From Alphaproteobacteria bacterium (GTDB lineage Bacteria > Pseudomonadota > Alphaproteobacteria > GM7ARS4 > CBDIDI01): a stretch of 64,000 nt of DNA. The stretch spans positions 14,829 through 78,828 of the forward strand of contig OZ255830.1 of NCBI GenBank assembly GCA_965277685.1, read 5' to 3'. The notes beneath the pieces are model-generated. The model worked only from the letters and a program-made list of their open reading frames with translations. It was not told the DNA's origin and ran no database searches. Of this stretch, positions 28,867-48,871 are shown one piece after another. Numbering within the stretch: position 1 is the first letter of the stretch; each line of letters begins with the position of its first letter. Made by a program: the position numbers and the translations under genes.

Positions 28867-29160
28867 AAGGCGGATTAAGGCATCGATCACGATTCCGATG
28901 CCGTCATCCTATCGGGTGATTATCGGCGCCGCCCAATGGAATGGATTATGACGGGCAAGGGCAATGCCGGGAACCTTTGTCAATGCGACCGACATCAAAG
29001 GCGGCACCAAGGTCGATGTAGCGCGACAGATAGAGTGAGAGCACTCAGGATCCGGGATAAAGCGGGTCCGTTAGGGGCGCGGTGGGACAAGGAATCTATT
29101 GGTGGGGGCGGGTTACGGGGCGATGGTGCGGTGCCCACAGGGCATCAAAACAGGTCCATC

Positions 29161-29218
29161 CCCGCGACAGATGGTTTGATAGCACTTTTACCGACCGCGA
29201 CAGATGGTTTGATAGCAC
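29161..29218. repeat. Left-end transposase-binding-site-like repeats: two direct copies of cgcgacagatggtttgatagcac, inverted relative to the right-end copies.
   Basis: cccgcgacagatggtttgatagcac at 29161-29185 and ccgcgacagatggtttgatagcac at 29195-29218. The reverse complement matches 20 of 24 bp with the 53401-53446 copies. Confidence 0.7.
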
Positions 29219-29539
29219 CCCGATCGGCGCAACGCCCGATGGGATAAGGGCTAGAGGGTGATTTTCGGCCCGACCGAACAACGAAGAAAAACGTAGCTGT
29301 TCCGAATCGACTTATTACTTCACCTGTGAGGCGCGGTTTTCTGCCATTTCCATCAAAACCCGATGCACAAATACCCCGGACTTGCGGCATTTGTGAATTA
29401 AAAGGGGTATAGAGCGATGGATATACAATCATAAATATATCCAAGGGCAAAATCGGCCAATAAGGAAGAATGGGAATGTCCATGGACGAATGACCATCAT
29501 ATCATGGCCGCTATGTCACCGATGAAGGTTCAAGGAACG

Positions 29540-30105
29540 CTATTCGACCGGGCGCGAGCCAACCGAACGGCGATCTGGGCCCGAATGGTTGCCTTGTCCG
29601 ATGGTGCCGCCGCGGGGTTCTGGGCGTTGTATCCGCGTTGACGGCGGCGTTAGACCGGTGATTGAGAATCGGCGAATCGGCCTTTCGACCGGGCGCGAGC
29701 CAACCGGGCGGCGATCTCGGCCCGAATGGTTGCCTTGTCCGATGGTGCCGCTGCGGGGGTCTGGGCGTTGTATCCGCGTTGACGGCGGCGTTGGACCGGT
29801 GATTGAGAATCGGCGAATCGGCCTTTCGGACCGGGCGCGAGCCAACCGGGCGGCGATCTGGGCCCGAATGGCTGCCTTGTCCGATGGTGCCGCCGCGGGG
29901 GTCTGGGCGTTGAATCCGCGTTGACGGCGGCGTTGAACCGGTGATTGAGAATCGGCGAATCGGCCTTTCGACCGGGCGCGAGCCAACCGAACGGCGATCT
30001 GGGCCCGAATGGTTGCCTTGTCCGATGGTGCCGCTGCGGGGGTCTGGGCGTTGAATCCGCGTTGACGGCGGGCGTTGAACCGGCGAATCGGCCGTGATTG
30101 TGGGG
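29540..30105. repeat. Minisatellite: unit of about 130-140 bp, about 4.3 tandem copies, between the element's left end and the repressor gene.
   Basis: cggcgaatcggcctttcgaccgggcgcgagccaacc recurs at about 29541, 29681, 29811 and 29951 with near-identical intervening sequence. The repetitive minus-strand ORFs across it are artefacts. Confidence 0.85.
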
Positions 30106-30249
30106 GCGCACGATATGGGCTTAACTTCCAGGTGAATGGACGATGCCTCCTGTATCGCGCGCCCCCTGACATCTTCTCCTAACGGCAATATAAACCGTGA
30201 CGGGAAATATCAACCCCGCGCGCCTTATTATCGCCTTATTATTTTGGGG

Positions 30250-30879
30250 TTAATCGGTTTTGGCCTTTGGCGGGGTGTTTTCTTCTTCCCGGGGCTTCTC
30301 ATCTTTATTTTTCAGGAACTTCTCATCTGCGGACAGAAAGCGACGCACGTCATGTTTCTTGCCGGTGGATATTTTATGTTTTCGTAATTCGCGGATTTTC
30401 TTAATCTCAATATCCAGCTTTTCCTGAAATTCTTCCCAGCAATGTGCGGCAAACTTGGGATAATCGAGGGGGTGGTGGCGAAATAATTTCAGCCTGACCA
30501 GGATCATCAAGAATTGCCGCAAGGTTTCCTGGAACCAGTCTTTCGACATCGCTTCGCGCCAATCATCAGGTGCCCCGTCCGGCTTGAGGGCCTGGGGAAT
30601 GCCGTCACCGTCCGCCGGGGGCGTCGATTGCGATCCGGCCGGGCGCATCTCACCCTCGCCCGTGGCCAGCCACTCCAGAGACACACCCACAGCACCGGCC
30701 AAACGTGATAACGCGGTGAAAGATGGCGTGCTTTCCCCTTTGCAATAGCGGTTCAGCTGCTCAACGGTAACACCGGCAACTTCACTCGCTTGCTTTTTCG
30801 ATGAGAAAAGATTGATTGCATCTTTAATGCGAGAATTTAGCCCACTATCACGAAATAATGTCTTGACCTTATGTCGCAT
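30250..30879 (-). CDS. Phage repressor-like HTH (XRE/Cro-C1 family) transcriptional regulator, transcribed leftward like Mu c.
   Basis: HTH segment QASEVAGVTVEQLNRYCKGESTPSFTALSRLAGAVGVSLEWLATGEG; divergent from the Ner-like gene. Confidence 0.7.
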   Translation of the reverse strand: MRHKVKTLFRDSGLNSRIKDAINLFSSKKQASEVAGVTVEQLNRYCKGESTPSFTALSRLAGAVGVSLEWLATGEGEMRPAGSQSTPPADGDGIPQALKPDGAPDDWREAMSKDWFQETLRQFLMILVRLKLFRHHPLDYPKFAAHCWEEFQEKLDIEIKKIRELRKHKISTGKKHDVRRFLSADEKFLKNKDEKPREEENTPPKAKTD

Positions 30880-30913
30880 TTATGCTGTTTATCCAAATCT
30901 TGACGAAGAAAAG

Positions 30914-31198
30914 ATGACAAAGGGTCGCATTAAAGCGTTTATAGAGGATGCTGGCATGACACTTCATGGGCTATCAACCCGACACGGACTGCGCCCTGAT
31001 GCGTGTTCAGTGGCCCTTCGTAAGGGACACCCTGAAGGCGAGGCGGCGATAGCAACTGTGTTGGGGATAGCGGCGGCGCGGATATGGAAGGAGCGCTATG
31101 GCCCCGACGGGCGGCGGTTAAAACCGCAACCATGGGCGAATGATCGGCACGATCGGGGTATTCGATCGACCGCGGCGGACCGACAACGGGCGGCATAG
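30914..31198 (+). CDS. Ner-like (Mu Ner/Nlp family) DNA-binding regulator.
   Basis: GLRPDACSVALRKGHPEGEAAIATVLGIAAARIWKERY closely parallels the Mu Ner C-terminus (GYAPTTLANALERHWPKGEQIIANALETKPEVIWPSRY). Confidence 0.7.
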   Translation: MTKGRIKAFIEDAGMTLHGLSTRHGLRPDACSVALRKGHPEGEAAIATVLGIAAARIWKERYGPDGRRLKPQPWANDRHDRGIRSTAADRQRAA

Positions 31199-31203
31199 TC
31201 ATC

Positions 31204-31623
31204 ATGAATGGAATTCCTATCACACCAACACATATACAAGCGCATTTTAGCGCGTTTGGTGTGATGTGGAAAGGGGGAACGACGTTTTCTTTAAGTTGTA
31301 ATGCCGTTCCCCGACTTATAAATGTCTGCCCCTTTGGCGAGTGGACGGGGCGCAAGGCGAATGTTTCGGGTGATCTTCCTCCCCGGAACCGGGCGCGCGG
31401 GGAGTTGAAGACGTCACCCGCCGCCCACTTTAATTTTTCCCACGTCGACCCGATCGGCGCGGGAATAACGAATGGCCGGTTAGGCTTTGTGTTCTTAGCT
31501 GCCGGTCGGGTCGGGGGGCGCACCCCTTCTGCAATATCGCGTTGCGGCCCTCGATCGTTTTTTTCGCGTGTGATCGATGTCATGAAGGCGTTGTTCGCAC
31601 GTCTTTTTGCCGCCCCGGCATGA
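31204..31623 (+). CDS. Hypothetical protein (Mu-like early region). An alternative minus-strand ORF, 30939-31673, covers the same DNA.
   Basis: Position and spacing (6 bp after the Ner-like gene, same strand as the operon); no motif recognised. Confidence 0.3.
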   Translation: MNGIPITPTHIQAHFSAFGVMWKGGTTFSLSCNAVPRLINVCPFGEWTGRKANVSGDLPPRNRARGELKTSPAAHFNFSHVDPIGAGITNGRLGFVFLAAGRVGGRTPSAISRCGPRSFFSRVIDVMKALFARLFAAPA

Positions 31624-31693
31624 AACAAGCGGAATTCTCTCCCGTTATGAGGCCGTGGGCGGATTCCCGGCATGAAACCTTTGGTGGTTTTTA

Positions 31694-31933
31694 ATGTCGC
31701 GCATTGATAGCTATATAACCCGTCCGAACGGCACCTTGAAAAAGGCCCATGCCGAGCCTATCAACGCATGCGGCGGGCTTGAGGCGGCGGCGGAAATGTG
31801 CCGCGTGTCGGTGCGTTCATTATCCAATTATTGCAACCCGGAACAGGCCAAGGCGCATATGCCGGTTGAGGTGGTCCAGGCGCTGGAGTGGGTATCTAGG
31901 AAAAATCCCGTATCGAGCTATCTGGCGGTATGA
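31694..31933 (+). CDS. Small hypothetical protein (Mu-like early region).
   Basis: 79-aa ORF whose stop overlaps the start of the ParB-like gene. Confidence 0.4.
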   Translation: MSRIDSYITRPNGTLKKAHAEPINACGGLEAAAEMCRVSVRSLSNYCNPEQAKAHMPVEVVQALEWVSRKNPVSSYLAV

Positions 31934-32877
31934 GTGGCGTTGTCGATATTGCCCTTGACCGGATCGAAATTGTCGATCGGGCCCGGCCGGTGGCATCGGC
32001 GCGGGTCGATCGGCTTGCCGCATCGATGGCGACGGAAGGGTTGCGCGCGCCGGTTCTTTTAAAGCCGATTCGCACCCGCAATATTGGCACGGGCAAGGTC
32101 GGTAAGGCAGTGATGCCGTCATCCTATCGGGTGATTGTCGGCGCGGCCCGGGTCGAAGCGGCCCGGCAATTGGAATGGAAAACGATAAGGGCCGAATTGC
32201 GCGATGGTATCAAAGTTGCCGATGCCGCCGCCCTTGAAATTGACGATAATTTATCCCATAGCGACCTGACCAAACTGGAATCGGCCCTGATGCTCGCCGC
32301 GCGCAAGCGGCTGTATGAGCAAGAAAACCCGGAAAGCCGCAACGGCGCGTGGGGAAGTCCCGCAAAATACAGAAATGAGAACGACAATTTGTCGTTCTCA
32401 AAGTTTATGGCGGATCGGATCGGTGTCCATCACCGCACGATCGAGCGCATGGTGCGCCGCGGTCAGGAAATCAGCCGCGCGGCGGCCGATACCCTTATCC
32501 TTAACGGGTCACCGGTGGCCGATTGCGATGTTGACCTCGATAGTCTTGCCGGACTTGCGGCCAATCATCAAATCGAGGCGGCGCAATGGGCGGTCGCGGC
32601 CGACACCGGCGAGCGGCGCCGGATACGAAAATGGCGCGAAGAACATGCGGGCAAACCGGCCGGCAATGTTCATGATTTCCCGAAAAAGTCACCATTAACG
32701 AAGAAAGACCAAGAAAACCTTGGCCTGACCCGCCTGCAAGGGGTGTGGTTTGAAACGCAGGTCGAGGATCGGTTGAAGTTTGCCGATTGGCTGCACGAGC
32801 GCGGGGAAATCACCGCCGCGCAAGCCGAGAAAATAAAAATCGCGGCCCGGCGCGATCCGGTCGTGTCATGTGGATGA
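31930..32877 (+). CDS. ParB-like nuclease domain protein.
   Basis: IALDRIEIVDRARP...RVDRLAASMATEGLRAPVLLKP...YRVIVGAARVEAARQL is a ParB N-terminal domain pattern, as in the early regions of transposable phages. Confidence 0.7.
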   Translation: MSGVVDIALDRIEIVDRARPVASARVDRLAASMATEGLRAPVLLKPIRTRNIGTGKVGKAVMPSSYRVIVGAARVEAARQLEWKTIRAELRDGIKVADAAALEIDDNLSHSDLTKLESALMLAARKRLYEQENPESRNGAWGSPAKYRNENDNLSFSKFMADRIGVHHRTIERMVRRGQEISRAAADTLILNGSPVADCDVDLDSLAGLAANHQIEAAQWAVAADTGERRRIRKWREEHAGKPAGNVHDFPKKSPLTKKDQENLGLTRLQGVWFETQVEDRLKFADWLHERGEITAAQAEKIKIAARRDPVVSCG

Positions 32878-33075
32878 CGGCGCCAGCGAACCGCCCGGCA
32901 ACGCCGCGTGGGCGTTCGCGTGTGAGCGTCCCAAAGGGGGACGCGTATTCAAAAATGAGGATGCCGTCATGTCGATGACGGCACCGGCGAACCGCCCGGG
33001 GCGTTCGCGTGTGAGCGTCCCAAAAGGGGACGCGTATTCAAAAATGAGGATGCCGTCATGTGGATGACGGCATCC
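32862..33075. promoter_or_regulatory. Tandem repeat of about 95-100 bp (two copies plus a partial third) carrying three copies of a perfect 22-bp palindrome tgccgtcatgt(c/g)gatgacggca. The last palindrome contains the transposase start codon. Candidate operator or enhancer.
   Basis: Direct repeat gtcatgtggatgacggc.ccagcgaaccgcccgg...gcgttcgcgtgtgagcgtcccaaa.ggggacgcgtattcaaaaatgaggatgccgtcatgt.gatgacggca. The palindrome was confirmed by reverse-complementing by eye. Confidence 0.6.
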
Positions 33076-35235
33076 GAGATTGCGACTTTGCGGTTGCCGG
33101 AATTACCGGCAACGGATGTCGGCATTCGAGCGCGGGCGCAAAAAGACGCATGGCGGTCACGCCGGCGGGCGGGGCGCGGCGGCGGCGTGGAATTTGCCCT
33201 TGAAAGCCTACCGGCCGAAGCGCGCAAGGCGTATCTCGGCACCGATCCGACCCCGGCCATCGACGGCAACCGCCACGATCCGGACAAGATGGATGCGAAA
33301 CTGACCATCATTCAGGTGGCGGCGGCGTGGCGCAAGGCGCAAAGCCTGTCCCTGCGCCGGGGCGAGGCGCAATTTTCGACCCTTTATAATGAAGGCTTGA
33401 TCGATGTGCCGGACTGGACCCGGCGGATTGTGCCGCATTTAAGCGCGGCGAGCCTGGCCCGGTGGCGCAAAATCAAGGATGCGGGGGGATATCGCCGCCT
33501 TGGTGGTGATTATGGCAATCGTTCCGGCACGTCACGCATCGAGCGGGCGGCCAGCGGCGCGGTGGCCGTGAAAATCGCCGCCCTAAAATGCAAGCAACCC
33601 CATTTGACCGCTTATAATATCAAAAGCATTATTTTAAGTGAGTTTAAGGGTGTTTTTGGTAAAAACCCGCCGCCGGTGCGCGCTTTTCAGCGTTTTATTG
33701 CCGAATGGAAAGATAAGAACGCCGAATCGTATCTTTACCTGACCAATCCCGATAAGTGGAAGGGCAGTCGCCGTTTTGCCACCGGGCGGATGTATGATCA
33801 TATCACCACGCCCAATCAGCTTTGGGAAATCGATGCATCCCCGGCCGATGTCATGACGACCGAAGGGCGGCGCAATCTGTATATGGTGATTGATATTGCG
33901 ACCCGGCGGGTCATGGTATCGGTGACGAAAACGGCGCGTAGTGACGCGATGCTTGCCCTTATCCGGCGGGCGATGCTGGTATGGGGGGTGCCGACCACGA
34001 TTCGCACCGATAACGGCAAGGATTTTGTATCGCGGGCGGCAAAGCGGGTCTTTACCGCCCTTGATATTCATCAGGATATCGCGCCGCCCTTCACACCGGA
34101 GGCCAAAGCGGCGGTCGAGCGGGCATTTCGGACATTACAACACGATTTAATGCCGCTGATCCCGGGCTATGTCGGGCATAACGTGGCCGACCGGCAGGAA
34201 ATCCGCGCGCGCAAGAAGTTTGCCCGGCGGCTTGGCGAGGACAATCGGAAAATCTTTCACATCGATACGGATGCGGCCGGTCTGCAATCGACCATCGATG
34301 CCTGGATTGCCAAGAAATACGAACATAAACCCCATGCCGGACTTGGCGGCAAAACGCCCTTTGCGGTGGCGGCGGCCTATGACGGCGTTATTCGCAAGAT
34401 CGAGAACGAGCGGGCGGTCGATATGCTGCTTGCGCCGGCGGCCGATGGCGATGGTTATCGCCAGGTGACCAAGCGCGGCATTCGGGTGGCGGGGGCTTAT
34501 TTTATCGGATCGGGATTAACGCCCGGCATGCGGGTTTTTGTCCGTTTTGACCCGGTCGATTTAGGGCGGATTTACGCCTTTACCGATGAATACGGCGATT
34601 TTATCGCCGATGCGATATGCCCGGAGCGGGCCGGTGTCGATCGGGTGGCGGCGGCAAGGGCGGCAAGGGCCGAGCAAGGGCGGCGAATAAGGCAAGAAGT
34701 CCGGCCACTCCAACAGGAAATCAACCGGATCAAGGACACCGATATGGTGGATGCGGTTCTTGGCGAGGCAGAGCGGCAAAACGGCAATATCACGGCGTTT
34801 CCACAGCGGGTCGATGCCCATACGACGCCCGCCCTTAAAGCAGCAGGGGAAGCGGCCAGGGAGACAATAGGGGAAGCAGCCGGGGACGCGGCCCGTGAAA
34901 CAATGGGGGAAGCGGCCCTTGAAGCGACCGGGGAAGCGGCCGGGGAGGTGGCCGGGGAGACAATGGGGGAGACAATGGGGGATGGGGCGCGGCAACACCT
35001 TATCGCCGATATGGCAACGGCCAAGCGGGCCCGCACCGATCCGATGGCGGATAAGGAAAGACGCTTTGCCCGGTGCCGCGATTTACAAAAAAAGCAGATA
35101 AACGGCGCCGCGATTAGTGATGATGACGCGCGCTGGCTGGAAAATTACGAAACCACGCCGGAATACCACGCGAAAGCGGCGATGGAGTCCGATTTTGCCG
35201 TTTTGGAAAAACCACGGGTGGCCGCGCATGGATAA
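33058..35235 (+). CDS. Mu-type DDE transposase A (rve/integrase-core superfamily).
   Basis: N-terminal DNA-binding region; catalytic core WEIDASPADVMT...YMVIDIATRRVM...IRTDNGKDFVS...ERAFRTLQ (D, D, E triad context). The C-terminal low-complexity GEAAGE repeat is encoded by a DNA repeat at 34850-34990. Immediately followed by a B-like ATPase. Confidence 0.8.
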   Translation: MWMTASEIATLRLPELPATDVGIRARAQKDAWRSRRRAGRGGGVEFALESLPAEARKAYLGTDPTPAIDGNRHDPDKMDAKLTIIQVAAAWRKAQSLSLRRGEAQFSTLYNEGLIDVPDWTRRIVPHLSAASLARWRKIKDAGGYRRLGGDYGNRSGTSRIERAASGAVAVKIAALKCKQPHLTAYNIKSIILSEFKGVFGKNPPPVRAFQRFIAEWKDKNAESYLYLTNPDKWKGSRRFATGRMYDHITTPNQLWEIDASPADVMTTEGRRNLYMVIDIATRRVMVSVTKTARSDAMLALIRRAMLVWGVPTTIRTDNGKDFVSRAAKRVFTALDIHQDIAPPFTPEAKAAVERAFRTLQHDLMPLIPGYVGHNVADRQEIRARKKFARRLGEDNRKIFHIDTDAAGLQSTIDAWIAKKYEHKPHAGLGGKTPFAVAAAYDGVIRKIENERAVDMLLAPAADGDGYRQVTKRGIRVAGAYFIGSGLTPGMRVFVRFDPVDLGRIYAFTDEYGDFIADAICPERAGVDRVAAARAARAEQGRRIRQEVRPLQQEINRIKDTDMVDAVLGEAERQNGNITAFPQRVDAHTTPALKAAGEAARETIGEAAGDAARETMGEAALEATGEAAGEVAGETMGETMGDGARQHLIADMATAKRARTDPMADKERRFARCRDLQKKQINGAAISDDDARWLENYETTPEYHAKAAMESDFAVLEKPRVAAHG

Positions 35236-36010
35236 TAGAGGGGATAGTCGAGGGGATAGTCGAGGGGATAATATGGAGCGCACAATACACGGGACAACCG
35301 CACCGGTGAGAAATGTCGCCCTATTCAATGAATTGGCCGAGCGCGTCATTCGCCGTCCCGGCCATCTTCCCGGGATGGCCGTTTTTCACGGGCCCAGCGG
35401 CTTTGGCAAGACGTTCAGTGCCACGTACGCCGCGAACAAGCATCTGGCTTGCTATGTCGAGGTCGGCGCGAGTTGGACGCGCAAGAAATTCTGTCAAGAA
35501 GTTCTTCGCCAATGCGGCGGTGATCTGCACGGTCGCCGGACGACATGCGACATAATGGACACGATTATCGGCACATTGGCCGATGAAGAAAGGCTTTTGA
35601 TCATCGATGAGGCCGATTTTGTCATGGACAAGGGCTTTATGGACTATGTGCGGGAGATTTACGAAAAATCCGGCGCGCCGATCATCTTGATTGGCGAGGA
35701 AACCCTGCCCGGCAAGATGCGGGTCGCGGATCGCTGCCATAACCGAATTATGGACTGGGTGCAGGCGGTTGCCGCCAACGGCGATGATACTCGCTATCTG
35801 GCCGGGCTATACGTGCCGGGGCTTCGTATCGATGACGGATTGCTGGCGCGCATCAACAAGGTATCCCATGGAAGGATACGGCGGATTTGCGTCAATCTCG
35901 AGCGGGTGCGGGAAGCGGCCGCTTTGGAGGGGTGGAAATCGGTATCATTGAAGGAATGGGCGGATCGCCCCCTGTTTACCGGCGAGCCACCAAAAAGGCG
36001 GGTTTTGTAA
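35228..36010 (+). CDS. MuB-like AAA+ ATPase (transposition target-capture protein).
   Basis: Walker A FHGPSGFGKTFSA and Walker B LLIIDEADF; its start overlaps the transposase stop. Confidence 0.75.
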   Translation: MDNRGDSRGDSRGDNMERTIHGTTAPVRNVALFNELAERVIRRPGHLPGMAVFHGPSGFGKTFSATYAANKHLACYVEVGASWTRKKFCQEVLRQCGGDLHGRRTTCDIMDTIIGTLADEERLLIIDEADFVMDKGFMDYVREIYEKSGAPIILIGEETLPGKMRVADRCHNRIMDWVQAVAANGDDTRYLAGLYVPGLRIDDGLLARINKVSHGRIRRICVNLERVREAAALEGWKSVSLKEWADRPLFTGEPPKRRVL

Positions 36011-36720
36011 TGGCCGGCGTGTCGGTATCGGAAGAAATCCGCCTCGACCTTCGCATTCCCCGCGGGGCGCAAGGATATTGGGATGTGATCCGGGTGATCG
36101 GCCGTTCCGGCCGCACCTTCGCGATGAGAGACATAAAAGACGTCTTTCACCTGATTAATCGGTGGGTGGTCGGCGACAATGGCCATTGCCCGGGTCAAGA
36201 TGACATCAGTGAGTATATTTCACGCTTGGTCAAGGGCGGCTATATCACGAAAAAAAACGGCATGATGGAATTGGTCAAGGATGCCGGGCAATGCGTTCCC
36301 CGTTTAAAGCGGGACGGATCGCCGACCCGCGCCGCGACCGGGCAGGATTATATGTGGCGGGCGATCCGAATGAACAAGGTATTTTCGCCCAAAGAGTTGA
36401 TGATCGCCGCATCCACCGATGCCGTTAAAATCACGATGCAAACCGCGAAAGACTATATCAAGCACCTAAAAGCGGCCGGGTATCTAAAGGTTGTCACACC
36501 CCACCAAGGGGGACGAAAGGCGGCCGTATATCGCCTTTATCCCAATCGGGCGACCGGCCCGGCCGCGCCGCAAGTGATGCGCGATAAGCGGGTCTATGAT
36601 CCCAATATCAAGCGGGTGATGACGCCGCAGGCGGCGAAGGCACCTAAAGTGACGGGCAAAACAACCGGCAAGATGACGGATAAGATGGCCAATAAGATGA
36701 TGGGCAAGGTCGCGGCATGA
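36010..36720 (+). CDS. Hypothetical phage protein (position equivalent to the Mu semi-essential early region).
   Basis: Start overlaps the stop of the B-like ATPase gene; lysine-rich repetitive C-terminal tail. Confidence 0.5.
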   Translation: MAGVSVSEEIRLDLRIPRGAQGYWDVIRVIGRSGRTFAMRDIKDVFHLINRWVVGDNGHCPGQDDISEYISRLVKGGYITKKNGMMELVKDAGQCVPRLKRDGSPTRAATGQDYMWRAIRMNKVFSPKELMIAASTDAVKITMQTAKDYIKHLKAAGYLKVVTPHQGGRKAAVYRLYPNRATGPAAPQVMRDKRVYDPNIKRVMTPQAAKAPKVTGKTTGKMTDKMANKMMGKVAA

Positions 36721-36953
36721 GTGCACCGACCTTAATTGACAATATCCGCAATTGCGCGGGGGTCATGGCGCAATTGGAACGCGATGGCGGCGGGCGTTTG
36801 ACGCAAAGGGCGGCCCAGTTGTTATCGGACGCCCTGGCCGATGCCGCCGATCAGGTCGAGGGGTTGATGGATATCGCGATCGAGCGGGCGCTCGCCCCGG
36901 ATTTACAACGGGTGGAGCAAGACGTTGAGGCGGATTTGCACGGCGATGGTTAA
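36717..36953 (+). CDS. Small hypothetical phage protein.
   Basis: 78-aa ORF whose start overlaps the preceding stop. Confidence 0.4.
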   Translation: MSAPTLIDNIRNCAGVMAQLERDGGGRLTQRAAQLLSDALADAADQVEGLMDIAIERALAPDLQRVEQDVEADLHGDG

Positions 36954-37102
36954 GATTAATCCCATTCTTTTAGCGATGGCACTACACAGGGCGACGCCAA
37001 AACGCCGCCGAAGGGGTATATGGGCATGGCTCCTTTTACGGCCCGGCAACGGCATTTTATCGATGGTATTGCCGAGAAACCACGCAAAGCGGGGGCGTTA
37101 AT

Positions 37103-37291
37103 ATGAAAATCATCTTAATTATTGTCGTGCTGTCGTTGCCGCCGGGGCATCCGATGCGCGAATCGGCGCAGTTGTTTGACGACATCCATGCCTGCGAGGC
37201 GGCAAGGGACGAGTTGCTTGCCCGTTATGGGCGCAAAAAGCGTTTGCGGTTGGGCTGCTATGGCTTGATTAAATTTGGGGATAAGGCGTGA
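37103..37291 (+). CDS. Small hypothetical protein with an N-terminal hydrophobic segment.
   Basis: MKIILIIVVLSLPPG...; 62 aa. Confidence 0.35.
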   Translation: MKIILIIVVLSLPPGHPMRESAQLFDDIHACEAARDELLARYGRKKRLRLGCYGLIKFGDKA

Positions 37292-37343
37292 TGGCGTTTT
37301 GGACATTTAGCCTCGGTATAATGATGGGCGGCGCGATGGCCGT

Positions 37344-37808
37344 ATGGTTGCGATTGCACGCCGATCGGCGAAAGCAGAACCGGCGATGACCCGCAAAACC
37401 CTGATGGCGCGTGTCCATGTCGGCGCCAAGACCCTTGGCATGGATGAGGATACGCGCCGCGCTTGGATGGAAAATCTTGTCGGACAGCGCTCGTGCATCG
37501 ATTGCACCGATGGGCAATTAAAGCGGCTTGCCGATGATATGAAGCGGCAAGGGGCAACGACCGATCGATGGCGGCCGTCACAAAAACGCTATGTGCGCAA
37601 AATTTGGGCCTTGTGGGGCGATATGAAACGGCGCGGCCTATTGGCCGATGCCAAAGATCCGCGCGCCTGGCTTGTCGGCTTTGTCCGGCGTCAAACCGGC
37701 GTTGATAATCCCGAATGGCTAAGCCCGGATCAGGCAAACAAGGTGATTGAGGGGTTAAAATCGATCATTGATCGCGCCCCCTTTGGGGATGCCGATGCCG
37801 GATCGTGA
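37344..37808 (+). CDS. GemA-like (Mu gp16, DUF1018) protein.
   Basis: TRKTLMARVHVGAKTLGMDEDTRRAWMENLVGQRSC..LTDGQLKRLADDMKRQG matches the gp16/GemA family pattern; it lies between the transposition module and the Mor-like gene, as in Mu. Confidence 0.65.
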   Translation: MVAIARRSAKAEPAMTRKTLMARVHVGAKTLGMDEDTRRAWMENLVGQRSCIDCTDGQLKRLADDMKRQGATTDRWRPSQKRYVRKIWALWGDMKRRGLLADAKDPRAWLVGFVRRQTGVDNPEWLSPDQANKVIEGLKSIIDRAPFGDADAGS

Positions 37809-38136
37809 CGAATATAAAGATATGCCGCGCTCGATGCAGGATATTGTCTCACTTATCGGGCGTGAAGCAACGTTGAAATTGCTTTTTCACCACGGCGGTG
37901 AGCGTTTTTACGTATCCGTATCGACCAAGGATCAAATTGCTCATGCCATTGGACAAGAGGCCGCGGATACGCTGGTAGAGAATTATAAAAGGGATTTTTT
38001 AGAATTGCCGCATGCAAAGCGAGCGGTCGCTGAATTCTTGTTCGCTCAAGGCTGGGAAAAGAAAGCAATTCAACAACATTTGCAAATTAATCGCCGCACT
38101 CTTGCCAGGTGGTTTAGAGGGGCAGATGCCCCATGA
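37768..38136 (+). CDS. Mor/C-family transcription activator (Mu middle/late activator homologue). The true start is probably an internal Met at 37789-37834.
   Basis: RSMQDIVSLIGREATLKLLFHHGGERFYVS...; C-terminal HTH AIQQHLQINRRTLARWF, typical of the Mor family. Confidence 0.6.
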   Translation: MIAPPLGMPMPDRDEYKDMPRSMQDIVSLIGREATLKLLFHHGGERFYVSVSTKDQIAHAIGQEAADTLVENYKRDFLELPHAKRAVAEFLFAQGWEKKAIQQHLQINRRTLARWFRGADAP

Positions 38137-38168
38137 CGCTTTAATTCTTCAAGTGCTAAGACGGGTTC

Positions 38169-38582
38169 ATGGCTACCCCACGCGGCATACGAAACCATAA
38201 TCCCGGCAATATCGAGCGCACCGGCACGCCGTGGCGCGGCATGGCCCACGATCAGTCCGGAGATGAGCGCTTTATCGTTTTTGAAAAGGTGGAATACGGC
38301 ATTCGGGCGATGGCGCGGATTTTACGTGTTTATCAGAAGAAGCATGGATGCCGGACGGTGAGGGATATTATTAACCGATGGGCGCCGCCGGTGGAAAACA
38401 ACACGCAAAGCTATATCAACCATGTCGCCGAGGTTTGCGGCGTTGACCAAGATCAACCGATTTCCCTTTATGACGATCGCGTGGTGGCGCGCCTGATTAA
38501 GGCGATCATTCATCATGAAAACGGCGATCAGCCCTATGATAACGCCACGATCCATCGCGGTATTTTGATGGAGGAATCCTGA
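38169..38582 (+). CDS. Conserved phage protein; candidate endolysin or peptidoglycan hydrolase, based on position immediately upstream of the holin.
   Basis: 137 aa, IRNHNPGNIE...W.G motif, which I recall seeing in phage lysis or virion-associated proteins but cannot assign to a named family. Its stop overlaps the holin start. Confidence 0.35.
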   Translation: MATPRGIRNHNPGNIERTGTPWRGMAHDQSGDERFIVFEKVEYGIRAMARILRVYQKKHGCRTVRDIINRWAPPVENNTQSYINHVAEVCGVDQDQPISLYDDRVVARLIKAIIHHENGDQPYDNATIHRGILMEES

Positions 38583-38989
38583 TGCCGGGCGGATTGCTTG
38601 GCGGATTGCTTGGTGGCGGCGTGGTATCGGCGGCCGAGGGCGTGGCCAATATCATCGACAAGTTCGTTGAGACCGACGAGGAAAAGAAAGCGGCCGCCTT
38701 GTTGCGGGCCAAAATCCAATTAAAGCCGTCCTTGGCCCAGATCGAGCTTAATAAGATCGAGGCCGGGCATCGCTCTATCTTTATTGCCGGGTGGCGGCCG
38801 TTTATCGGTTGGGTCTGCGGTGTGGCCTTGGCCTGGCAATTTATCCTCTATGACTTGATGCGCTGGGTATTTCCCCATACCGCGCCGCCGGATTTGGGCG
38901 GCACGGAAACCCTGACGACAATCGTTTTATCCTTGCTTGGCCTTGGCGCATTGCGCACGGCCGAGAAATTTGGCGGCAAGTCGAAATGA
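38582..38989 (+). CDS. Phage holin, 3-TM type (DUF3154-like, as in gene-transfer-agent and phage lysis cassettes).
   Basis: Gly-rich N-terminus, IELNKIEAGHRSIFIAGWRPFIGWVCGVALAWQFILYD, and three hydrophobic segments. Confidence 0.6.
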   Translation: MPGGLLGGLLGGGVVSAAEGVANIIDKFVETDEEKKAAALLRAKIQLKPSLAQIELNKIEAGHRSIFIAGWRPFIGWVCGVALAWQFILYDLMRWVFPHTAPPDLGGTETLTTIVLSLLGLGALRTAEKFGGKSK

Positions 38990-39125
38990 TCACGGCGGGG
39001 ATGCCGGGGCACGGCGGCGAGAACACGGCGGGGATGCCGGGGCACGGCGGCAAGAACACGGCGGGGATGCCGGGGCACGGCGGCAAGAACACGGCGGGGA
39101 TGCCGGGGCACGGCGGCAAGAACAC
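38990..39125. repeat. 33-bp tandem repeat, four copies.
   Basis: atgccggggcacggcggc.agaacacggcgggg repeated four times. It would encode an HGGDAGARRQE repeat if the long ORF 38937-39446 were used. Confidence 0.85.
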
Positions 39126-39149
39126 ATCCAGTCCCTTGGCGTGGTCGAA

Positions 39150-39446
39150 ATGATTTTCGATCCGGATGTCGTTCATCTTATCTGGAGCGTGACAACGACA
39201 ATCATTGCCGGGCTCGCGGCGTTCTATGCCTGGCAAGTCAAACGGACCGGTGCCAACACATCGGCAATTGATGGTTTGGACCGGCGCTTGATAAGGGTTG
39301 AAGAACAGGCCAAGGCCTTTGCCTATCGTAGCGAAGTCACGGAAATGGCGGCAACGCTGAAGGGTTTTGGCAATGCACTGACACGGATCGAGACGCAAGT
39401 GGGCCAGATCACCGAATCGCTTTTGTCGGGAAGGGGCGAGAAATGA
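39150..39446 (+). CDS. Putative spanin-like lysis protein (N-terminal transmembrane segment plus coiled coil).
   Basis: MIFDPDVVHLIWSVTTTIIAGLAAFYAWQV transmembrane segment followed by a helical region with heptad periodicity; it follows the holin. Confidence 0.4.
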   Translation: MIFDPDVVHLIWSVTTTIIAGLAAFYAWQVKRTGANTSAIDGLDRRLIRVEEQAKAFAYRSEVTEMAATLKGFGNALTRIETQVGQITESLLSGRGEK

Positions 39447-39646
39447 ACCTTGAAACCATCAAGCGTGAAGACCGCCGCCGGTCGAACGGCTTGCTATTTT
39501 GGGCCCGACAGCCGGCGCCGTCGGCTATGAGGGGAATCGCATTGCCCCGGTTGATGCCCCCGTTGATGCCCTGGATGAATTGGGGTTTATGGTCGGCCAA
39601 TCGATCCATTGATCGCCTCATTTTACATGGGGCAGGTGCCCCATGA
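39443..39646 (+). CDS. Small hypothetical protein.
   Basis: 67-aa ORF translationally coupled on both sides; no lipobox is seen, so an o-spanin role is not supported. Confidence 0.25.
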   Translation: MNLETIKREDRRRSNGLLFWARQPAPSAMRGIALPRLMPPLMPWMNWGLWSANRSIDRLILHGAGAP

Positions 39647-39960
39647 CGCAACGAGAAACATCTCTTTATAACGGGGGCATGTCGATTGTTTTTGCCGATA
39701 TAACACGTGCTTTGGAACGCCGAGAGGTGAAGGCGCAGGGTTTTACGCCACCGGCAAGCGATGGGCATCTAATGGAATCGATTGCCCGGCCGTCGGATGG
39801 TGACACGATTCAGGTGGGCACGCCGTTAGTCTACGGCGCGGTGCATCAATTTGGATGGGATGAGAAAAATATCCCGGCCCGGCCATTCCTTGGACTATCG
39901 ACAGAAAACGAAGCCGATCTGCACGATACACTCAACCGCTTTATCGAGGGCATCCAATGA
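39643..39960 (+). CDS. Phage virion morphogenesis / tail completion protein (P2 gpS / Mu G family).
   Basis: ...TPLVYGAVHQFGW......IPARPFLGLS..... pattern of the virion-morphogenesis family; it immediately precedes the baseplate genes, as in P2 (S-V). Confidence 0.55.
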   Translation: MTQRETSLYNGGMSIVFADITRALERREVKAQGFTPPASDGHLMESIARPSDGDTIQVGTPLVYGAVHQFGWDEKNIPARPFLGLSTENEADLHDTLNRFIEGIQ

Positions 39961-40463
39961 CGAACGGAACGACGATCCTTGACACCCGCGCGGCGGTGGT
40001 ATCCGACGTGGAGGCATTTTTGCCGGATTTGCAAGAATGCATCGCCCATCCCGGCCGCTTTAACGCGGAAGAATTACAGCTCTTTGTCGCCCGACCGCCC
40101 GCCGTTCGGATCGCGGTGCTGGGCATTGCATCGGGCACGCGCACCCCGGATGACGCGCTGCGCGTGGTGGCTTCCTTCGCCGCCTTTATTGTCACGGGAG
40201 ACGCGCCGGGACTGCCCAGGGACGCGGCCGCCATCAATCTGGTCGAGGCCGTAGCCGGCCGGGTGAATACGCGCATATGGAATGAGGCGTGCGAACCGGC
40301 CGAAAACATCCGGGCCGAAAATCTTTATTCCAGTCAGGTCAACAATAATAACCTTGCTCTATGGGCCGTGACATGGGGACAACCGATCATCCTTGACCGG
40401 CGCGATGATGATGCCGGCGCGTTGCCGCGGAAACTCTACGTAACGGGGGGGTTATCGTGTTAA
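39957..40463 (+). CDS. Hypothetical tail-module protein. It sits where gpR / pyocin PA0615 would be, upstream of the spike gene.
   Basis: Translationally coupled between the S-like and V genes; no motif recognised. Confidence 0.4.
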   Translation: MTNGTTILDTRAAVVSDVEAFLPDLQECIAHPGRFNAEELQLFVARPPAVRIAVLGIASGTRTPDDALRVVASFAAFIVTGDAPGLPRDAAAINLVEAVAGRVNTRIWNEACEPAENIRAENLYSSQVNNNNLALWAVTWGQPIILDRRDDDAGALPRKLYVTGGLSC

Positions 40464-40975
40464 CCGACCAATCTTTCACACTTGCCGATGTCGAGCGCAT
40501 GATCGCCAATCTGATCCGGATTGGCACGGTCGAGCGCGTCGATCTTGCCCGGGCCCGGGCCCGGGTGCGTCTGGGCAACGATCTTGTGACCGATGATCTT
40601 GCTTGGCTATCGGCGGCCGGTGACACAAAGACTTGGCGCCCGCCAACGATTGGCGAGCAGGTTATCGTCCTGTCGCCATCCGGGGAACTTGCGGCCGGGG
40701 TTATCTTGGCCGGGATGTATCGCGCGTCAAAACCCGCGCCGTCAACGATGCCCGATAATCAAGTCGTCTTTGCCGATGGATCGAAAGTCACCTGGGAAGA
40801 TAGCAAGTTGCGCATTGAAGCGGCCGGTGACCTGACGATCACGGCCGTGGATAACCTGACGATCGAGGCCGGCGGCGATCTTGTTGTCCGCGCGGCCGAT
40901 ACCACGGTCGAGGGGGAGAATATCAATCTTGAAGGGTCAAGCATTAACGCCAATCGCCGGATTGACCAACCATGA
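40457..40975 (+). CDS. Baseplate assembly protein V (central spike).
   Basis: IGTVERVDLARARARVRLGNDLVTD.LAWL...G...TWRPPTIGEQVIVLSPSGEL..GVIL is a gpV OB-fold pattern with a C-terminal beta-helix repeat. Confidence 0.75.
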   Translation: MLTDQSFTLADVERMIANLIRIGTVERVDLARARARVRLGNDLVTDDLAWLSAAGDTKTWRPPTIGEQVIVLSPSGELAAGVILAGMYRASKPAPSTMPDNQVVFADGSKVTWEDSKLRIEAAGDLTITAVDNLTIEAGGDLVVRAADTTVEGENINLEGSSINANRRIDQP

Positions 40976-41322
40976 GGGGGATGTCCGCAGTAAACGGCAC
41001 GGCATTGGAAGGGCTGGCCCACGTGGTGCAATCGGTGCGCGATATTTTGCTGACGCCGATCGGCACGCGGGTGATGCGGCGCGATTACGGATCGCGCGTG
41101 GACGGGCTTCTGGATCGTCCCATGGGAAAGAACGCCATCGTCGAGTTCACCCAAGCCATCGCCGAAGCATTGGATCGGTGGGAACCGCGCTTTGACCTTG
41201 ACCGGGTTAGCGTGTCCGAAATGACACCGGATGGACGCATTAGCCTTTTGGTCATTGGCTATCATATCGAAGGCGCACGCCGCGAGCCAATCACCATCAC
41301 CATGACGGGGTCAAGAGCATGA
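40972..41322 (+). CDS. Baseplate wedge protein gpW (GP25 lysozyme-like fold).
   Basis: SIGDILLTPIGTRVMRRDYGS parallels P2 gpW (SIGDILRTPVGSRVMRRDYGS). Confidence 0.8.
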   Translation: MRGMSAVNGTALEGLAHVVQSVRDILLTPIGTRVMRRDYGSRVDGLLDRPMGKNAIVEFTQAIAEALDRWEPRFDLDRVSVSEMTPDGRISLLVIGYHIEGARREPITITMTGSRA

Positions 41323-43468: not shown

Positions 43469-43487
43469 CCCATAAGAAGGATATTGC

Positions 43488-45020: not shown

Positions 45021-45835
45021 TGCTTTACGCCGAGCCAAGAAATCTGTCCGCTCAAGGGTTTGACGCTATGCTCACCCTTGATGGTGGCCTCAATAAAATC
45101 ATCAAGACAGCCCTGGGCAAGCGTGACGATTGGTTCGACCTCCCACGGTTTGTCTATGTCCACGTGCCCGCCGGGGTCAAGATCGGGTCGGAAAAACCCG
45201 CATGGGCCGGGCTTACCACCGGCAGTGGCTGGTCGGCAGGCAGTCGCATCCTTCTTGTCAATGACGGCAAAGTATTGGGCGCCGGCGGCAAGGGGGCTAA
45301 TCCGGACGACAACGGGCAGGATGGCGGGACGGCTTTACGTATCCACCAGGGCATCCATGTGGTTTTAGAAAATTCAGGGACGATTGCCGGCGGTGGCGGC
45401 GGCGGCGGTAGTCAGGGGGGCACATGGTGGGATCGCAAATGGGGCAATATTGGACATGGATGCGGTGGCGGCGGTGCCGGATACCAACCCGGGTTGGGGG
45501 GATACCCCATTGGCACCGGGACGGAACGCGACCATGACCGTAACGTGAATGGGCGGCGGGTTCGCTACCAGGAAGGTGACCCCGGCACGGAAACCACCGG
45601 CGGTGGTGGCGGGCGAAGGGACCTTCGTGGACGCGGTTCCGGTGGCGGCCGGCGTGGTGGCGACTTGGGGATGGCGGGGGAACCAAACCGCGACGGAAGA
45701 AATGGCGCTGCCGGGGCTTGGGTGGAAATACGCACGGGCGCAGAATTAATCGTTCGCGAAGACGGGCAAACCCTGGGCACGCGCAAAACCGACGTTGCAG
45801 CATTCCGCAGCGCGGATTTGGCACCCAACGAATAA
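45020..45835 (+). CDS. Glycine-rich hypothetical protein downstream of the tail fiber gene.
   Basis: 271 aa with multiple GGGGG tracts and a GxGxxG-type low-complexity core; occupies the P2 gpG / pyocin chaperone position. Confidence 0.45.
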   Translation: MLYAEPRNLSAQGFDAMLTLDGGLNKIIKTALGKRDDWFDLPRFVYVHVPAGVKIGSEKPAWAGLTTGSGWSAGSRILLVNDGKVLGAGGKGANPDDNGQDGGTALRIHQGIHVVLENSGTIAGGGGGGGSQGGTWWDRKWGNIGHGCGGGGAGYQPGLGGYPIGTGTERDHDRNVNGRRVRYQEGDPGTETTGGGGGRRDLRGRGSGGGRRGGDLGMAGEPNRDGRNGAAGAWVEIRTGAELIVREDGQTLGTRKTDVAAFRSADLAPNE

Positions 45836-48863: not shown

Positions 48864-48871
48864 GGGATGCC

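What the first reader, a model, noticed from the sequence alone, without database searches (positions are those of the whole stretch)
29161..29218. Terminal inverted repeats delimit the element
A 20 to 24-bp sequence, cgcgacagatggtttg(atagcac), occurs twice in direct orientation about 1.1 kb upstream of the repressor gene. Its reverse complement, gcaaaccatctgtcgcg, occurs twice just after gpD at 53401-53446.

Inverted ends, each with two direct copies of a binding-site-like motif, are the architecture of Mu attL/attR transposase-binding sites. This pins the element at roughly 29.16 to 53.45 kb. It also implies that the 135-bp minisatellite at 29.5-30.1 kb lies inside the left end.
Basis: seen in the sequence. 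Interest (0 to 1): 0.7.

Follow-up and report, generated by a model that had tools for sequence, protein, structure and literature searches.

The report
Mu-type transposon ends, headless prophage
The repeated motif is real and marks the transposase-binding ends of a Mu-like transposable prophage (29,017-53,447) that has lost its head genes but keeps a full P2-like tail and lysis module; ends like these are expected in such a prophage, the element around them is unusual.

Summary
Observation confirmed. The 16-mer CGCGACAGATGGTTTG occurs exactly four times in 64 kb: 29163 and 29196 (+), 53405 and 53427 (-).

Interpretation supported, with corrections:
- The element encodes a MuA-family DDE transposase, a MuB-like ATPase, GemA, Mor and a divergent CI-type repressor.
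The element therefore runs 5'-TGTAG (29017) to CTACA-3' (53447), not from 29.16 kb.
- The site layout is Mu-like. On the left, L1 is terminal, L2 lies 141 bp on and L3 a further 33 bp. On the right, R1 and R2 abut at 22 bp.
- The terminus TGTA(A/G)CGCG and the L1-L2-L3 spacing recur in about 35 related alphaproteobacterial prophages and in Rhodovulum phage RS1.

Points against current mobility: there is no 5-bp target duplication (GTCGA vs TACAA), L1 is mutated in the otherwise invariant TGGTTTGA block, and a relic of a related element lies just outside the left end. The element is probably immobilised.

It has no capsid or packaging genes, but it has an apparently complete P2-like tail (all tail ORFs open) and a lysis cassette, like a tailocin.

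By-product: this transposase family inserts close to tRNA genes (9 of 36 left ends; here tRNA-Met lies 34 bp from the right end).

The parts
29017..53447 (+). Whole element (24,431 bp): a Mu-like transposable prophage derivative with termini 5'-TG...CA-3'.
   Evidence: Inverted terminal match ATGTAGCGCGACAG / CTGTCGCGCTACAT (pair I4). The terminus TGTAGCGCG is conserved in relatives L007, L010, L085 and in phage RS1. GC is 57.8% against 54% in the flanks.
29017..29043 (+). Left terminus TGTAG plus site L1 (29022-29043, CGCGACAGATAGAGTGAGAGCA). L1 is degenerate in the TGGTTTGA block.
   Evidence: The TGGTTTGA block is unchanged in every other site of this subtype, in the window and in L005, L007, L010, L074 and L085.
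29163..29184 (+). Site L2 (CGCGACAGATGGTTTGATAGCA), 141 bp start-to-start from L1.
   Evidence: In relatives L2 lies 113-138 bp from L1.
29196..29217 (+). Site L3, identical to L2 and 33 bp start-to-start from it.
   Evidence: (family D18). In relatives a third site lies 32-44 bp after L2.
53399..53420 (-). Site R2 (CGCGACAGATGGTTTGCGACCT on the - strand).
53421..53447 (-). Site R1 (53421-53442) plus right terminus CTACA (53443-53447). R1 and R2 abut with a 22-bp period.
   Evidence: The same layout, TGTAG followed by two abutting 22-bp sites, occurs in L007, L010 and L085.
30250..30879 (-). CI-type repressor, transcribed towards the left end.
   Evidence: Pfam HTH_3 (3.9e-9) and Phage_CI_repr (4.5e-5).
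31930..32877 (+). ParB-like early protein.
   Evidence: phrog_3264, 5.6e-33. Present upstream of the transposase in 24 relatives.
33058..35235 (+). MuA-family DDE transposase (725 aa). It is the protein predicted to bind the five sites.
   Evidence: Pfam rve 1.8e-13, HTH_Tnp_Mu_1 1.3e-10, Mu-transpos_C 5.7e-8. The N-terminus aligns to the MuA enhancer-binding domain 1TNS. Residues D259, D318 and E354 are invariant in a 24-sequence alignment. Its length matches that of its homologues.
35117..36010 (+). MuB-like AAA+ ATPase (the true start codon is probably later than 35117).
   Evidence: Pfam AAA_22, 5.5e-16, with a weak TniB match. Conserved directly downstream of the transposase in 74 relatives.
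37344..38136 (+). GemA (37344-37808) and the Mor-type late activator (37768-38136).
   Evidence: Pfam GemA 2.8e-27; phrog_836 late transcriptional activator 1.3e-17.
38169..53307 (+). Lysis cassette (endolysin, holin, spanin-like ORF) followed by a P2-type contractile tail module with all expected components, in the order R, S, V, W, J, I, H, FI, FII, E, T, U, D. There are no capsid, portal or terminase genes.
   Evidence: PHROG and Pfam assignments. The sheath is 54% identical to that of P2-like myophages.
29543..30083 (.). 141-bp minisatellite (3.8 copies) inside the element, between L3 and the 3' end of the repressor gene.
   Evidence: The ORF that spans it has no Pfam match.
53482..53558 (-). 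Host tRNA-Met (CAT). Its 3' end faces the right terminus 34 bp away. It is a flank, not part of the element.
28896..28934 (+). Relic fragment of a ParB-like gene, 85-120 bp outside the left terminus. It is a flank, not part of the element.
   Evidence: 36 of 38 nt identical to 32112-32149.

Best explanation
The repeats are the end-binding sites (attL and attR) of a Mu-type transposable prophage.

Five 22-bp sites with consensus CGCGACAGATGGTTTG(A/C)(T/G)AGCA are arranged as in phage Mu. On the left, L1 starts 5 bp inside the terminus, L2 lies 141 bp further in and L3 33 bp after L2. On the right, R1 also starts 5 bp inside the terminus and R2 abuts it at 22 bp. The left and right sets are in inverted orientation, and the element ends 5'-TG...CA-3' at 29017 and 53447.

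By analogy with MuA (inferred, not tested), the element's 725-aa DDE transposase would bind these sites through the region between its N-terminal Mu-type winged-helix domain and its catalytic core. It would pair the two ends in a transpososome, nick after the terminal CA and, with the MuB-like ATPase, join the ends to target DNA 5 bp apart.

This copy is a 24.4-kb derivative. It has lost every capsid and packaging gene and much of the early region, and keeps a Mor-controlled lysis cassette and a P2-like contractile tail module with all components present as open ORFs.

It is most likely no longer mobile, for three reasons. L1 is mutated in the block that is invariant in all other sites of this type. 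No target duplication flanks the element. The left flank carries a relic of a related element, which points to rearrangement after insertion.
For: Shown by the sequence:
- Four exact 16-mers plus one degenerate copy, found only at the two ends and in inverted orientation.
- TG/CA termini and the 22-bp R1-R2 period.

Shown by gene content:
- Transposase with HTH_Tnp_Mu_1, rve and Mu-transpos_C domains; MuB-like AAA ATPase; GemA; Mor; left-end repressor.
- Conserved D259, D318 and E354, and normal length.
- N-terminus aligns to MuA domain 1TNS.

Shown by comparison:
- TGTAGCGCG plus two abutting 22-bp sites at prophage/host junctions in L007, L010 and L085.
- TGTAGCG(C/T)GAC at both ends of Rhodovulum phage RS1, the characterised phage with the most similar transposase, 36% identity.
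- About 40 relatives found through transposase homology have TGTA(A/G)CGCG... 3-7 kb upstream of the transposase. In nearly all of them a second site lies at +113 to +138 bp, and in eleven a third site follows L2 by 32-44 bp.
- A relative has a 5-bp duplication, GGCAT, at both ends.

No integrase gene and no att-core repeat was found.
Against: - No 5-bp target duplication: GTCGA at 29012-29016 against TACAA at 53448-53452.
- L1 carries 3 changes in the TGGTTTGA block.
- Only two right-end sites were found; there is no R3.
- Binding and cleavage are inferred from homology alone.
- The 1.63-Mb source genome could not be searched for further copies. Its proteins are singletons in the collections and it is absent from the GTDB representative set.
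- Full-length MuA itself was not retrieved by sequence search of the PDB; only its N-terminal domain was. The transposase is therefore a distant family member.
Confidence: 0.88

Rival explanations
1. The sites are the same as in the best explanation, but the element is still active. It would be a transposable, head-less tail producer (a mobile tailocin): on induction the transposase and MuB-like protein replicate it by transposition, Mor turns on the tail and lysis genes, and tails are released without capsids.
For: - Transposase, MuB-like protein, repressor, GemA and Mor are full-length ORFs with a conserved DDE triad.
- L2, L3, R1 and R2 are perfectly conserved.
- Every tail and lysis ORF is open.
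- The tandem repeats inside coding regions all have periods that are multiples of 3 (126, 48, 36, 33, 12 bp), whereas two of the three non-coding arrays (141 and 89 bp) do not. This suggests that reading frames are under selection.
Against: - L1 is degenerate in the invariant block. In Mu, L1, R1 and R2 form the core of the transpososome (established knowledge of Mu).
- There is no target duplication, and the left flank is rearranged.
- No second example of this architecture was found: none of 80 relatives has P2-like tail genes within 10 kb downstream of the transposase.
Confidence: 0.22
2. The repeats are arm-type binding sites of a tyrosine integrase, and the element is a site-specifically integrated prophage at tRNA-Met.
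For: A tRNA-Met gene lies 34 bp beyond the right end with its 3' end facing the element. Arm-type sites in lambda-like and P2-like attP regions are also short repeats found on both arms (established knowledge).
Against: - No integrase or recombinase domain in any ORF of the element or its flanks.
- No direct repeat of the tRNA 3' end or of the right flank at the left end.
- The motif sits at the ends of transposase-encoding elements inserted at many different loci.
Confidence: 0.02
3. The repeats are operator or centromere-like sites for another element-encoded DNA-binding protein (the CI-type repressor or the ParB-like protein), not for the transposase.
For: The element encodes a repressor and a ParB-like protein. 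Binding specificity was not tested.
Against: - The sites lie at the extreme termini, starting 5 bp from a conserved TG/CA end, not in the repressor/early-promoter intergenic region at 30.9-31.7 kb.
- They are not palindromic.
- Their asymmetric left-versus-right arrangement matches Mu end sites and is conserved across the family.
Confidence: 0.05
4. The 16-mer is a genome-wide dispersed repeat (REP-like) that happens to flank the prophage.
For: The whole source genome could not be searched.
Against: - About 40 kb of flanking host DNA in the window contains no copy with 2 or fewer mismatches.
- The inverted orientation, the TG/CA termini and the 22-bp phasing are those of transposon ends.
- The same motif occurs at junctions of Mu-like elements in unrelated genomes.
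Confidence: 0.03

Closest known systems
Phage Mu attL/attR (L1-L3, R1-R3) with MuA, MuB and the left-end repressor
   Same: - 5'-TG...CA-3' termini.
- About 22-bp transposase sites in direct orientation within an end and inverted between ends.
- L1 at the terminus, separated from an L2/L3 pair; R1 and R2 abutting.
- Transposase with a Mu-type N-terminal HTH, a DDE core and the Mu C-terminal domain, followed by an AAA+ partner.
- Repressor gene at the left end; GemA and Mor present.
(. The Mu site layout is from established knowledge.)
   Different: - The site sequence is unrelated to the Mu consensus.
- Only two right-end sites are seen.
- The repressor is CI/HTH_3-type rather than Mu c.
- There is no 5-bp duplication here.
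- There are no head or packaging genes.
- The tail is P2-type.
- The element is 24.4 kb, against about 37 kb for Mu.
Rhodovulum phage RS1 and Rhodobacter phage RC1 (alphaproteobacterial Mu-like siphophages)
   Same: They are the characterised phages with the most similar transposase (36% identity over 81% of the protein). The gene order is the same: CI-like repressor, transposase, transposition ATPase, regulator, then Mor and endolysin. RS1 carries the terminal sequence TGTAGCGCGAC at its left end and TGTAGCGTGAC at its right end.
   Different: RS1 is 40 kb with a full terminase, portal, protease and capsid module and a siphovirus tail. The inner half of its end sites differs. There is no nucleotide-level similarity between the window element and any record in the phage collection.
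Uncharacterised Mu-like prophages of Alphaproteobacteria (80 genome loci; IMG/VR contigs L005, L007, L010)
   Same: Transposases 35-47% identical. Left terminus TGTA(A/G)CGCG..., with the L1, L2 and L3 spacing conserved. Sites of the TGGTTTGA subtype occur in Azospirillum (L074, L085) and in L005, L007 and L010.
   Different: Their contig sizes (about 38-53 kb) and wider gene spacing point to full-length phages. GemA lies 5-9 kb downstream of the transposase in most of them, against 2.1 kb here. None has P2-like tail genes within 10 kb downstream.
R-type tailocins (for example R-pyocins), which are domesticated P2-like tails
   Same: A contractile P2-type tail gene set with all components, plus holin and endolysin, and no capsid or packaging genes. 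The comparison with pyocin organisation is from established knowledge.
   Different: To my knowledge, known tailocin clusters carry no transposase, no MuB-like protein and no transposon ends. A literature search for tailocin together with Mu-like and transposase found no such case. Tail production by this element is untested.
BcepMu and KS10 (Mu-like transposable myophages of Burkholderia)
   Same: They combine Mu-type transposition with contractile tails related to P2. This is from my own knowledge. The KS10 paper (PMC2628397) appeared in the search but I did not read it.
   Different: They keep Mu-like head genes and are full-size phages. I made no sequence comparison with them here beyond the phage-collection searches.

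Membership tests
Mu-like transposable (pro)phage | MuA-family DDE transposase (Mu N-terminal DNA-binding domain, RNase-H-fold core, Mu C-terminal domain). | tested here: met
   Pfam HTH_Tnp_Mu_1, rve and Mu-transpos_C, all above their curated cut-offs. D259, D318 and E354 invariant. 1TNS match.
Mu-like transposable (pro)phage | MuB-like AAA+ ATPase encoded directly downstream of the transposase. | tested here: met
   AAA_22, 5.5e-16. Syntenic homologue in 74 relatives.
Mu-like transposable (pro)phage | Inverted termini ending 5'-TG...CA-3'. | tested here: met
   TGTAG at 29017 and CTACA at 53447. Conserved in relatives and in RS1.
Mu-like transposable (pro)phage | Several about 22-bp transposase-binding sites per end, arranged differently at the left and right ends. 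| tested here: met
   L1, then 141 bp to L2, then 33 bp to L3. R1 and R2 at a 22-bp period. The spacing is conserved in relatives.
Mu-like transposable (pro)phage | 5-bp target-site duplication flanking the element. | tested here: not met
   GTCGA against TACAA. A relative has GGCAT on both sides. The left flank here carries a relic of a related element.
Mu-like transposable (pro)phage | Head and headful-packaging module (terminase, portal, Mu F-like protein, protease/scaffold, major head protein). | tested here: not met
   Every ORF between 29017 and 53447 was scanned; none is a capsid or packaging protein. One label, 'portal protein' (phrog_490), falls on a 168-aa ORF in the position of P2 gpS, which is too small to be a portal.
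Mu-like transposable (pro)phage | Transposase actually binds the sites and the element transposes. | not testable with these tools
   Needs footprinting or strand-transfer assays, or induction followed by junction sequencing.
Integrase-type prophage at a tRNA gene | Tyrosine or serine recombinase gene at one end. | tested here: not met
   No such domain in any ORF of the element or in the neighbouring host genes.
Integrase-type prophage at a tRNA gene | Direct repeat (att core) of the tRNA 3' end at the far end of the element. | tested here: not met
   No match between 53440-53700 and the left flank. No such direct repeat.
R-type tailocin | Complete contractile-tail and lysis genes without capsid or packaging genes. 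| tested here: met
   R, S, V, W, J, I, H, FI, FII, E, T, U and D plus endolysin and holin are present as open ORFs, with no head genes. Completeness is judged from gene content only.
R-type tailocin | Produces bactericidal tail particles and is fixed in the host chromosome without mobility genes. | not testable with these tools
   Particle production is untested. The presence of a transposase, a MuB-like protein and transposon ends departs from known tailocins.

The most novel reading that the evidence does not exclude
The element is a functional, self-mobilising tail-only element: a Mu-type transposon whose cargo is a complete P2-like contractile tail and lysis module with no capsid. On induction it would amplify itself by replicative transposition and release tailocin-like particles.

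A second, separate novelty that the data do not exclude is that its transposase family targets the neighbourhood of tRNA genes when it integrates.
Probability: 0.2. Interest if true: 0.7.

Novelty: new member of a known kind. Interest (0 to 1): 0.4.

Why it matters
The ends fix the exact limits of the element (29,017-53,447). They show that it entered by Mu-type transposition, not by integrase action at the adjacent tRNA gene. That matters for annotation, because tRNA-adjacent prophages are routinely assumed to be integrase-borne.

They also define a conserved end signature, TGTA(A/G)CGCG plus the L1, L2 and L3 spacing. This signature can be used to delimit a large and mostly undescribed family of alphaproteobacterial transposable prophages.

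Two side results could be worth more than the repeats themselves:
- A Mu-type transposon that carries only a P2-like tail and lysis module. This may be a route from phage to tailocin, or simply decay.
- A strong statistical association of this family's insertions with tRNA genes. If real, it is an unusual target preference for a Mu-family transposase.

Tried and rejected
- **Empty-site comparison.** Exact-protein look-ups of Acs, MnmA and the transposase found no contigs. All five proteins looked up (the transposase and four flanking housekeeping proteins) are singleton clusters on one 1.63-Mb contig. The source genome is not among the GTDB representatives retrieved.
- **Nucleotide search against phages.** Megablast of the whole element against 50,697 phage records gave no match.
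- **14-mer scan of IMG/VR.** Only 12 of 120 loci were real ends.
- **Integrase and arm-site hypothesis.** Rejected: no recombinase gene and no att core repeat.
- **Alternative left boundary.** I considered that the degenerate site at 29022 belongs to the older relic and that the element starts at 29163. I rejected this because the L1, L2 and L3 spacing fits the family pattern and the ATGTAG extension pairs with the right terminus.
- **Target duplications of other lengths or offsets.** None found.
- **RS1 left flank.** It looks like the 3' end of a tRNA by eye, but ARAGORN did not call it, so I do not count it in the tRNA statistics.

Full report
**1. The observation**

- The 16-mer CGCGACAGATGGTTTG occurs exactly at 29163 and 29196 on the + strand and at 53405 and 53427 on the - strand.
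- With up to three mismatches the window holds six matches. The mean in 100 dinucleotide-preserving shuffles was 0.76, and no shuffle reached six.
- The two left copies are identical over 24 nt (family D18). The two right copies are spaced exactly 22 bp apart.
A degenerate site at 29022-29043 is preceded by ATGTAG. Together these form a 29-nt inverted repeat, 86% complementary, with the outermost right-hand sequence (29016-29044 vs 53420-53448, pair I4).

**2. What lies between the repeats**

The genes, in order:

| Coordinates | Strand | Product |
|---|---|---|
| 30250-30879 | - | CI-type repressor |
| 31930-32877 | + | ParB-like protein |
| 33058-35235 | + | 725-aa transposase (HTH_Tnp_Mu_1, rve, Mu-transpos_C; all above Pfam cut-offs) |
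| 35117-36010 | + | MuB-like AAA ATPase |
| 37344-37808 | + | GemA |
| 37768-38136 | + | Mor-type late activator |
| 38169-39446 | + | endolysin, holin and a spanin-like ORF |
| 39643-53307 | + | P2-order contractile tail module: R, S, V, W, J, I, H, sheath, tube, E, tape measure, U, D |

- The transposase N-terminus aligns to the solved MuA enhancer-binding domain 1TNS.
- D259, D318 and E354 are invariant in an alignment with 23 homologues.
- The flanks are ordinary host genes: ispDF, gpsA and acs on the left; tRNA-Met, mnmA and an FAD oxidase on the right.
- No ORF in or next to the element has a recombinase domain.

**3. The anatomy of the ends**

Aligned in register, the five sites read:

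| Site | Preceding bases | 22-bp site |
|---|---|---|
| L1 | TGTAG | CGCGACAGATAGAGTGAGAGCA |
| L2 | | CGCGACAGATGGTTTGATAGCA |
| L3 | | CGCGACAGATGGTTTGATAGCA |
| R1 | TGTAG | CGCGACAGATGGTTTGCGAGCA |
| R2 | | CGCGACAGATGGTTTGCGACCT |

- The element therefore runs from TG at 29017 to CA at 53447.
- L1 and R1 both start 5 bp inside their terminus.
- L2 lies 141 bp start-to-start from L1, and L3 33 bp from L2. R2 abuts R1.
- This is the asymmetric layout known for Mu: L1 separated from L2 and L3, with R1 and R2 contiguous 22-bp sites (established knowledge of Mu).
The left boundary moves from about 29,161 to 29,017.

**4. Comparative evidence**

- A scan of IMG/VR for the 16-mer recovered Mu-like junctions with the same construction:
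  - L007: ...cag|TGTAGCGCGACAAATGGTTTGAGATCT-CGCGACAGATGGTTTGAG.
  - L010: ...gag|TGTAGCGCGCCACTTGGTTTGACCCAT-CGCGACAGATGGTTTGACCCAT.
  - L005: encodes a transposase 34% identical to the window's and a MuB homologue. It has a terminal site and a second site about 165 bp in.
- The closest characterised phages by transposase similarity are Rhodovulum phage RS1 and Rhodobacter phage RC1, at 36% identity. RS1 carries TGTAGCGCGAC at its left end and TGTAGCGTGAC at its right end.
- The transposase has 249 homologues at E of 1e-20 or better. The best non-self hits are only 44-47% identical.
- A profile-guided scan of species-representative genomes returned 80 loci, nearly all from Alphaproteobacteria.
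  - In about 40 of them a terminus TGTA(A/G)CGCG(C/A)(A/C)A... lies 3-7 kb upstream of the transposase.
  - In nearly all of these a second copy of the site lies 113-138 bp inside the first. In eleven a third copy follows L2 by 32-44 bp.
  - An Azospirillum locus, L085, shows TGTAG plus two abutting TGGTTTGA-type sites.
- The terminal sequence and the site spacing are therefore family characters that travel with the transposase. This is the strongest available argument that they are its binding sites.
- Actual binding remains an inference.

**5. Target duplication and state of the element**

- The 5 bp outside the ends differ: GTCGA at 29012-29016 and TACAA at 53448-53452. No other register gives a duplication.
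- The family does make 5-bp duplications. In IMG/VR contig 2706794534_000003 both ends of one element are flanked by GGCAT.
- Three observations suggest that this copy has been rearranged and is probably immobile:
  1. L1 differs at three positions within TGGTTTGA. That block is unchanged in every other site of this subtype, both in the window and in L005, L007, L010, L074 and L085.
  2. Positions 28896-28934, which lie 85-120 bp outside L1, match 36 of 38 nt of the element's own ParB-like gene in the same orientation. This is a relic of a related copy.
  3. The element is only 24.4 kb. In most of the 80 relatives where GemA was found, it lies 5-9 kb downstream of the transposase, against 2.1 kb here. 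None of the 80 has P2-like tail genes within 10 kb.
- No close strain exists in the collections, so an empty-site test was not possible.

**6. Rival explanations**

- **Integrase prophage at tRNA-Met.** Excluded: there is no recombinase gene and no att core repeat.
- **Repressor or ParB operators.** Unlikely, given the terminal position, the lack of dyad symmetry and the conserved Mu-like asymmetry between the ends.
- **Dispersed host repeat.** Not supported by the 40 kb of host DNA in the window, and contradicted by the motif's occurrence at Mu-like junctions in other genomes. The full source genome was not searchable.

**7. The head-less architecture**

- There is no terminase, portal, protease/scaffold or capsid gene between the ends.
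- The tail and lysis genes are all open reading frames.
- The sheath is 54% identical to that of P2-like myophages.
- All tandem repeats inside coding regions have periods divisible by three (126, 48, 36, 33 and 12 bp). Two of the three non-coding arrays, at 141 and 89 bp, do not; the 45-bp array does. This hints that the reading frames are still under selection.
- Two readings remain:
  - A decaying prophage. I favour this reading.
  - A tailocin-like module that still sits in a Mu-type transposon. I put this at about 0.2.
- A literature search for tailocin together with Mu-like and transposase found no described case.

**8. A by-product: insertion next to tRNA genes**

- In the window the right terminus lies 34 bp from the 3' end of tRNA-Met.
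- In L007 the terminus lies 122 bp from the 3' end of a tRNA-Ser gene.
- Among 36 relatives with an identified left end and at least 350 bp of outside flank, nine have a tRNA gene 27-307 bp outside that end: Met, Arg, Ser, Ser, Gln, Thr, Phe, Gly and Met. Seven have the tRNA 3' end facing the element and two the 5' end.
- Only 11 tRNA genes lie anywhere in the 188 kb of outside flank, so nine within 350 bp gives a binomial P of 1.3e-9.
- Near-identical elements in four Stappia genomes sit beside different tRNA genes, so these are independent insertions.
- What the literature shows:
  - Site-biased lysogenic integration is reported for Mu-like phages of Citromicrobium (PMC12486242).
  - Replication hotspots 55-61 bp from hairpin-forming BIME repeats are reported for Pseudomonas saltoviruses (PMC5977238).
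  - I found no report of tRNA proximity.
- A terminator hairpin or a transcription-linked target preference is a plausible cause, but this is untested.

**9. Verdict**

- The left boundary moves to 29017, and the expected target duplication is absent.
- As transposon ends these repeats are an ordinary, expected feature of a Mu-like prophage, and a new member of a known kind.
- The modest interest comes from the head-less P2-tail cargo and from the tRNA-proximal insertion pattern of the family.

Noticed in passing
window 53448-53558; loci L028, L030, L046, L047, L052, L053, L059, L069, L080, L007: Elements of this transposase family sit next to tRNA genes. Here tRNA-Met is 34 bp from the right end. 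Nine of 36 relatives have a tRNA gene 27-307 bp outside the left end (binomial P = 1.3e-9), beside different tRNA genes even for near-identical elements. I found no report of this in the literature searched.
   Followed up: partly
window 36000-53307: The element has no capsid, portal or terminase genes. It keeps a Mor activator, an endolysin and holin, and a P2-order contractile tail module with every component present, all as open ORFs. This is a tailocin-like cargo inside Mu-type transposon ends. None of 80 relatives shares this arrangement.
   Followed up: partly
window 28896-28934 vs 32112-32149: A 38-nt stretch 85-120 bp outside the left terminus matches 36 of 38 nt of the element's ParB-like gene, in the same orientation. 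Its translation, PMPSSYRVIIGAA, resembles the gene's VMPSSYRVIVGAA. It is a relic of a related copy and evidence that the left flank has been rearranged.
   Followed up: partly
window 28673-28690 vs 29007-29024: An 18-nt inverted repeat (17 of 18 matching) pairs the host/L1 junction (CCAAGGTCGA|TGTAGCGC) with a sequence inside acs that encodes the conserved GDTSTL motif, 316 bp away. It could be chance or a scar of rearrangement.
   Followed up: no
window 28729-28862, 29543-30083, 32910-33072, 34838-34958, 38991-39125, 43976-44596, 48494-48575, 50872-51053: The region is unusually rich in tandem repeats. Arrays inside coding regions all have periods divisible by 3 (126, 48, 36, 33, 12 bp). The non-coding arrays have periods of 141, 89 and 45 bp. 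The 89-bp duplication repeats the ribosome-binding site and start codon of the transposase; the second copy carries the real start at 33058.
   Followed up: partly
window 29044-29100; left ends of L030, L046, L047, L052, L053, L060, L093 and others: Just inside L1, both the window and its relatives carry GGGA(T/A)-type motifs repeated about every 11 bp (for example CCGGGATAAAGCGGGTCCG...GGTGGGAC here and CCGGGATTAGGTGGGAATAGG in Stappia). They are absent from the right end. They might be a pac-like or host-factor site; this was not tested.
   Followed up: no
L151 (6891/6898), L156 (9345/9396), L206 (14011/14031), L085 (about 6087): In several relatives, ends of two elements lie back to back within 7-51 bp. 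In L151 a left end begins 1 bp after the 5-bp duplication that flanks another element's right end. This suggests repeated use of the same insertion spots, or insertion next to a resident element.
   Followed up: partly
window 29017-53447 vs flanks: The element has 57.8% GC against 54.4% and 53.9% in the flanks. The host housekeeping proteins are singletons at 90% identity in a collection of 15 billion proteins, so the host is a poorly sampled lineage with a 1.63-Mb contig.
   Followed up: no
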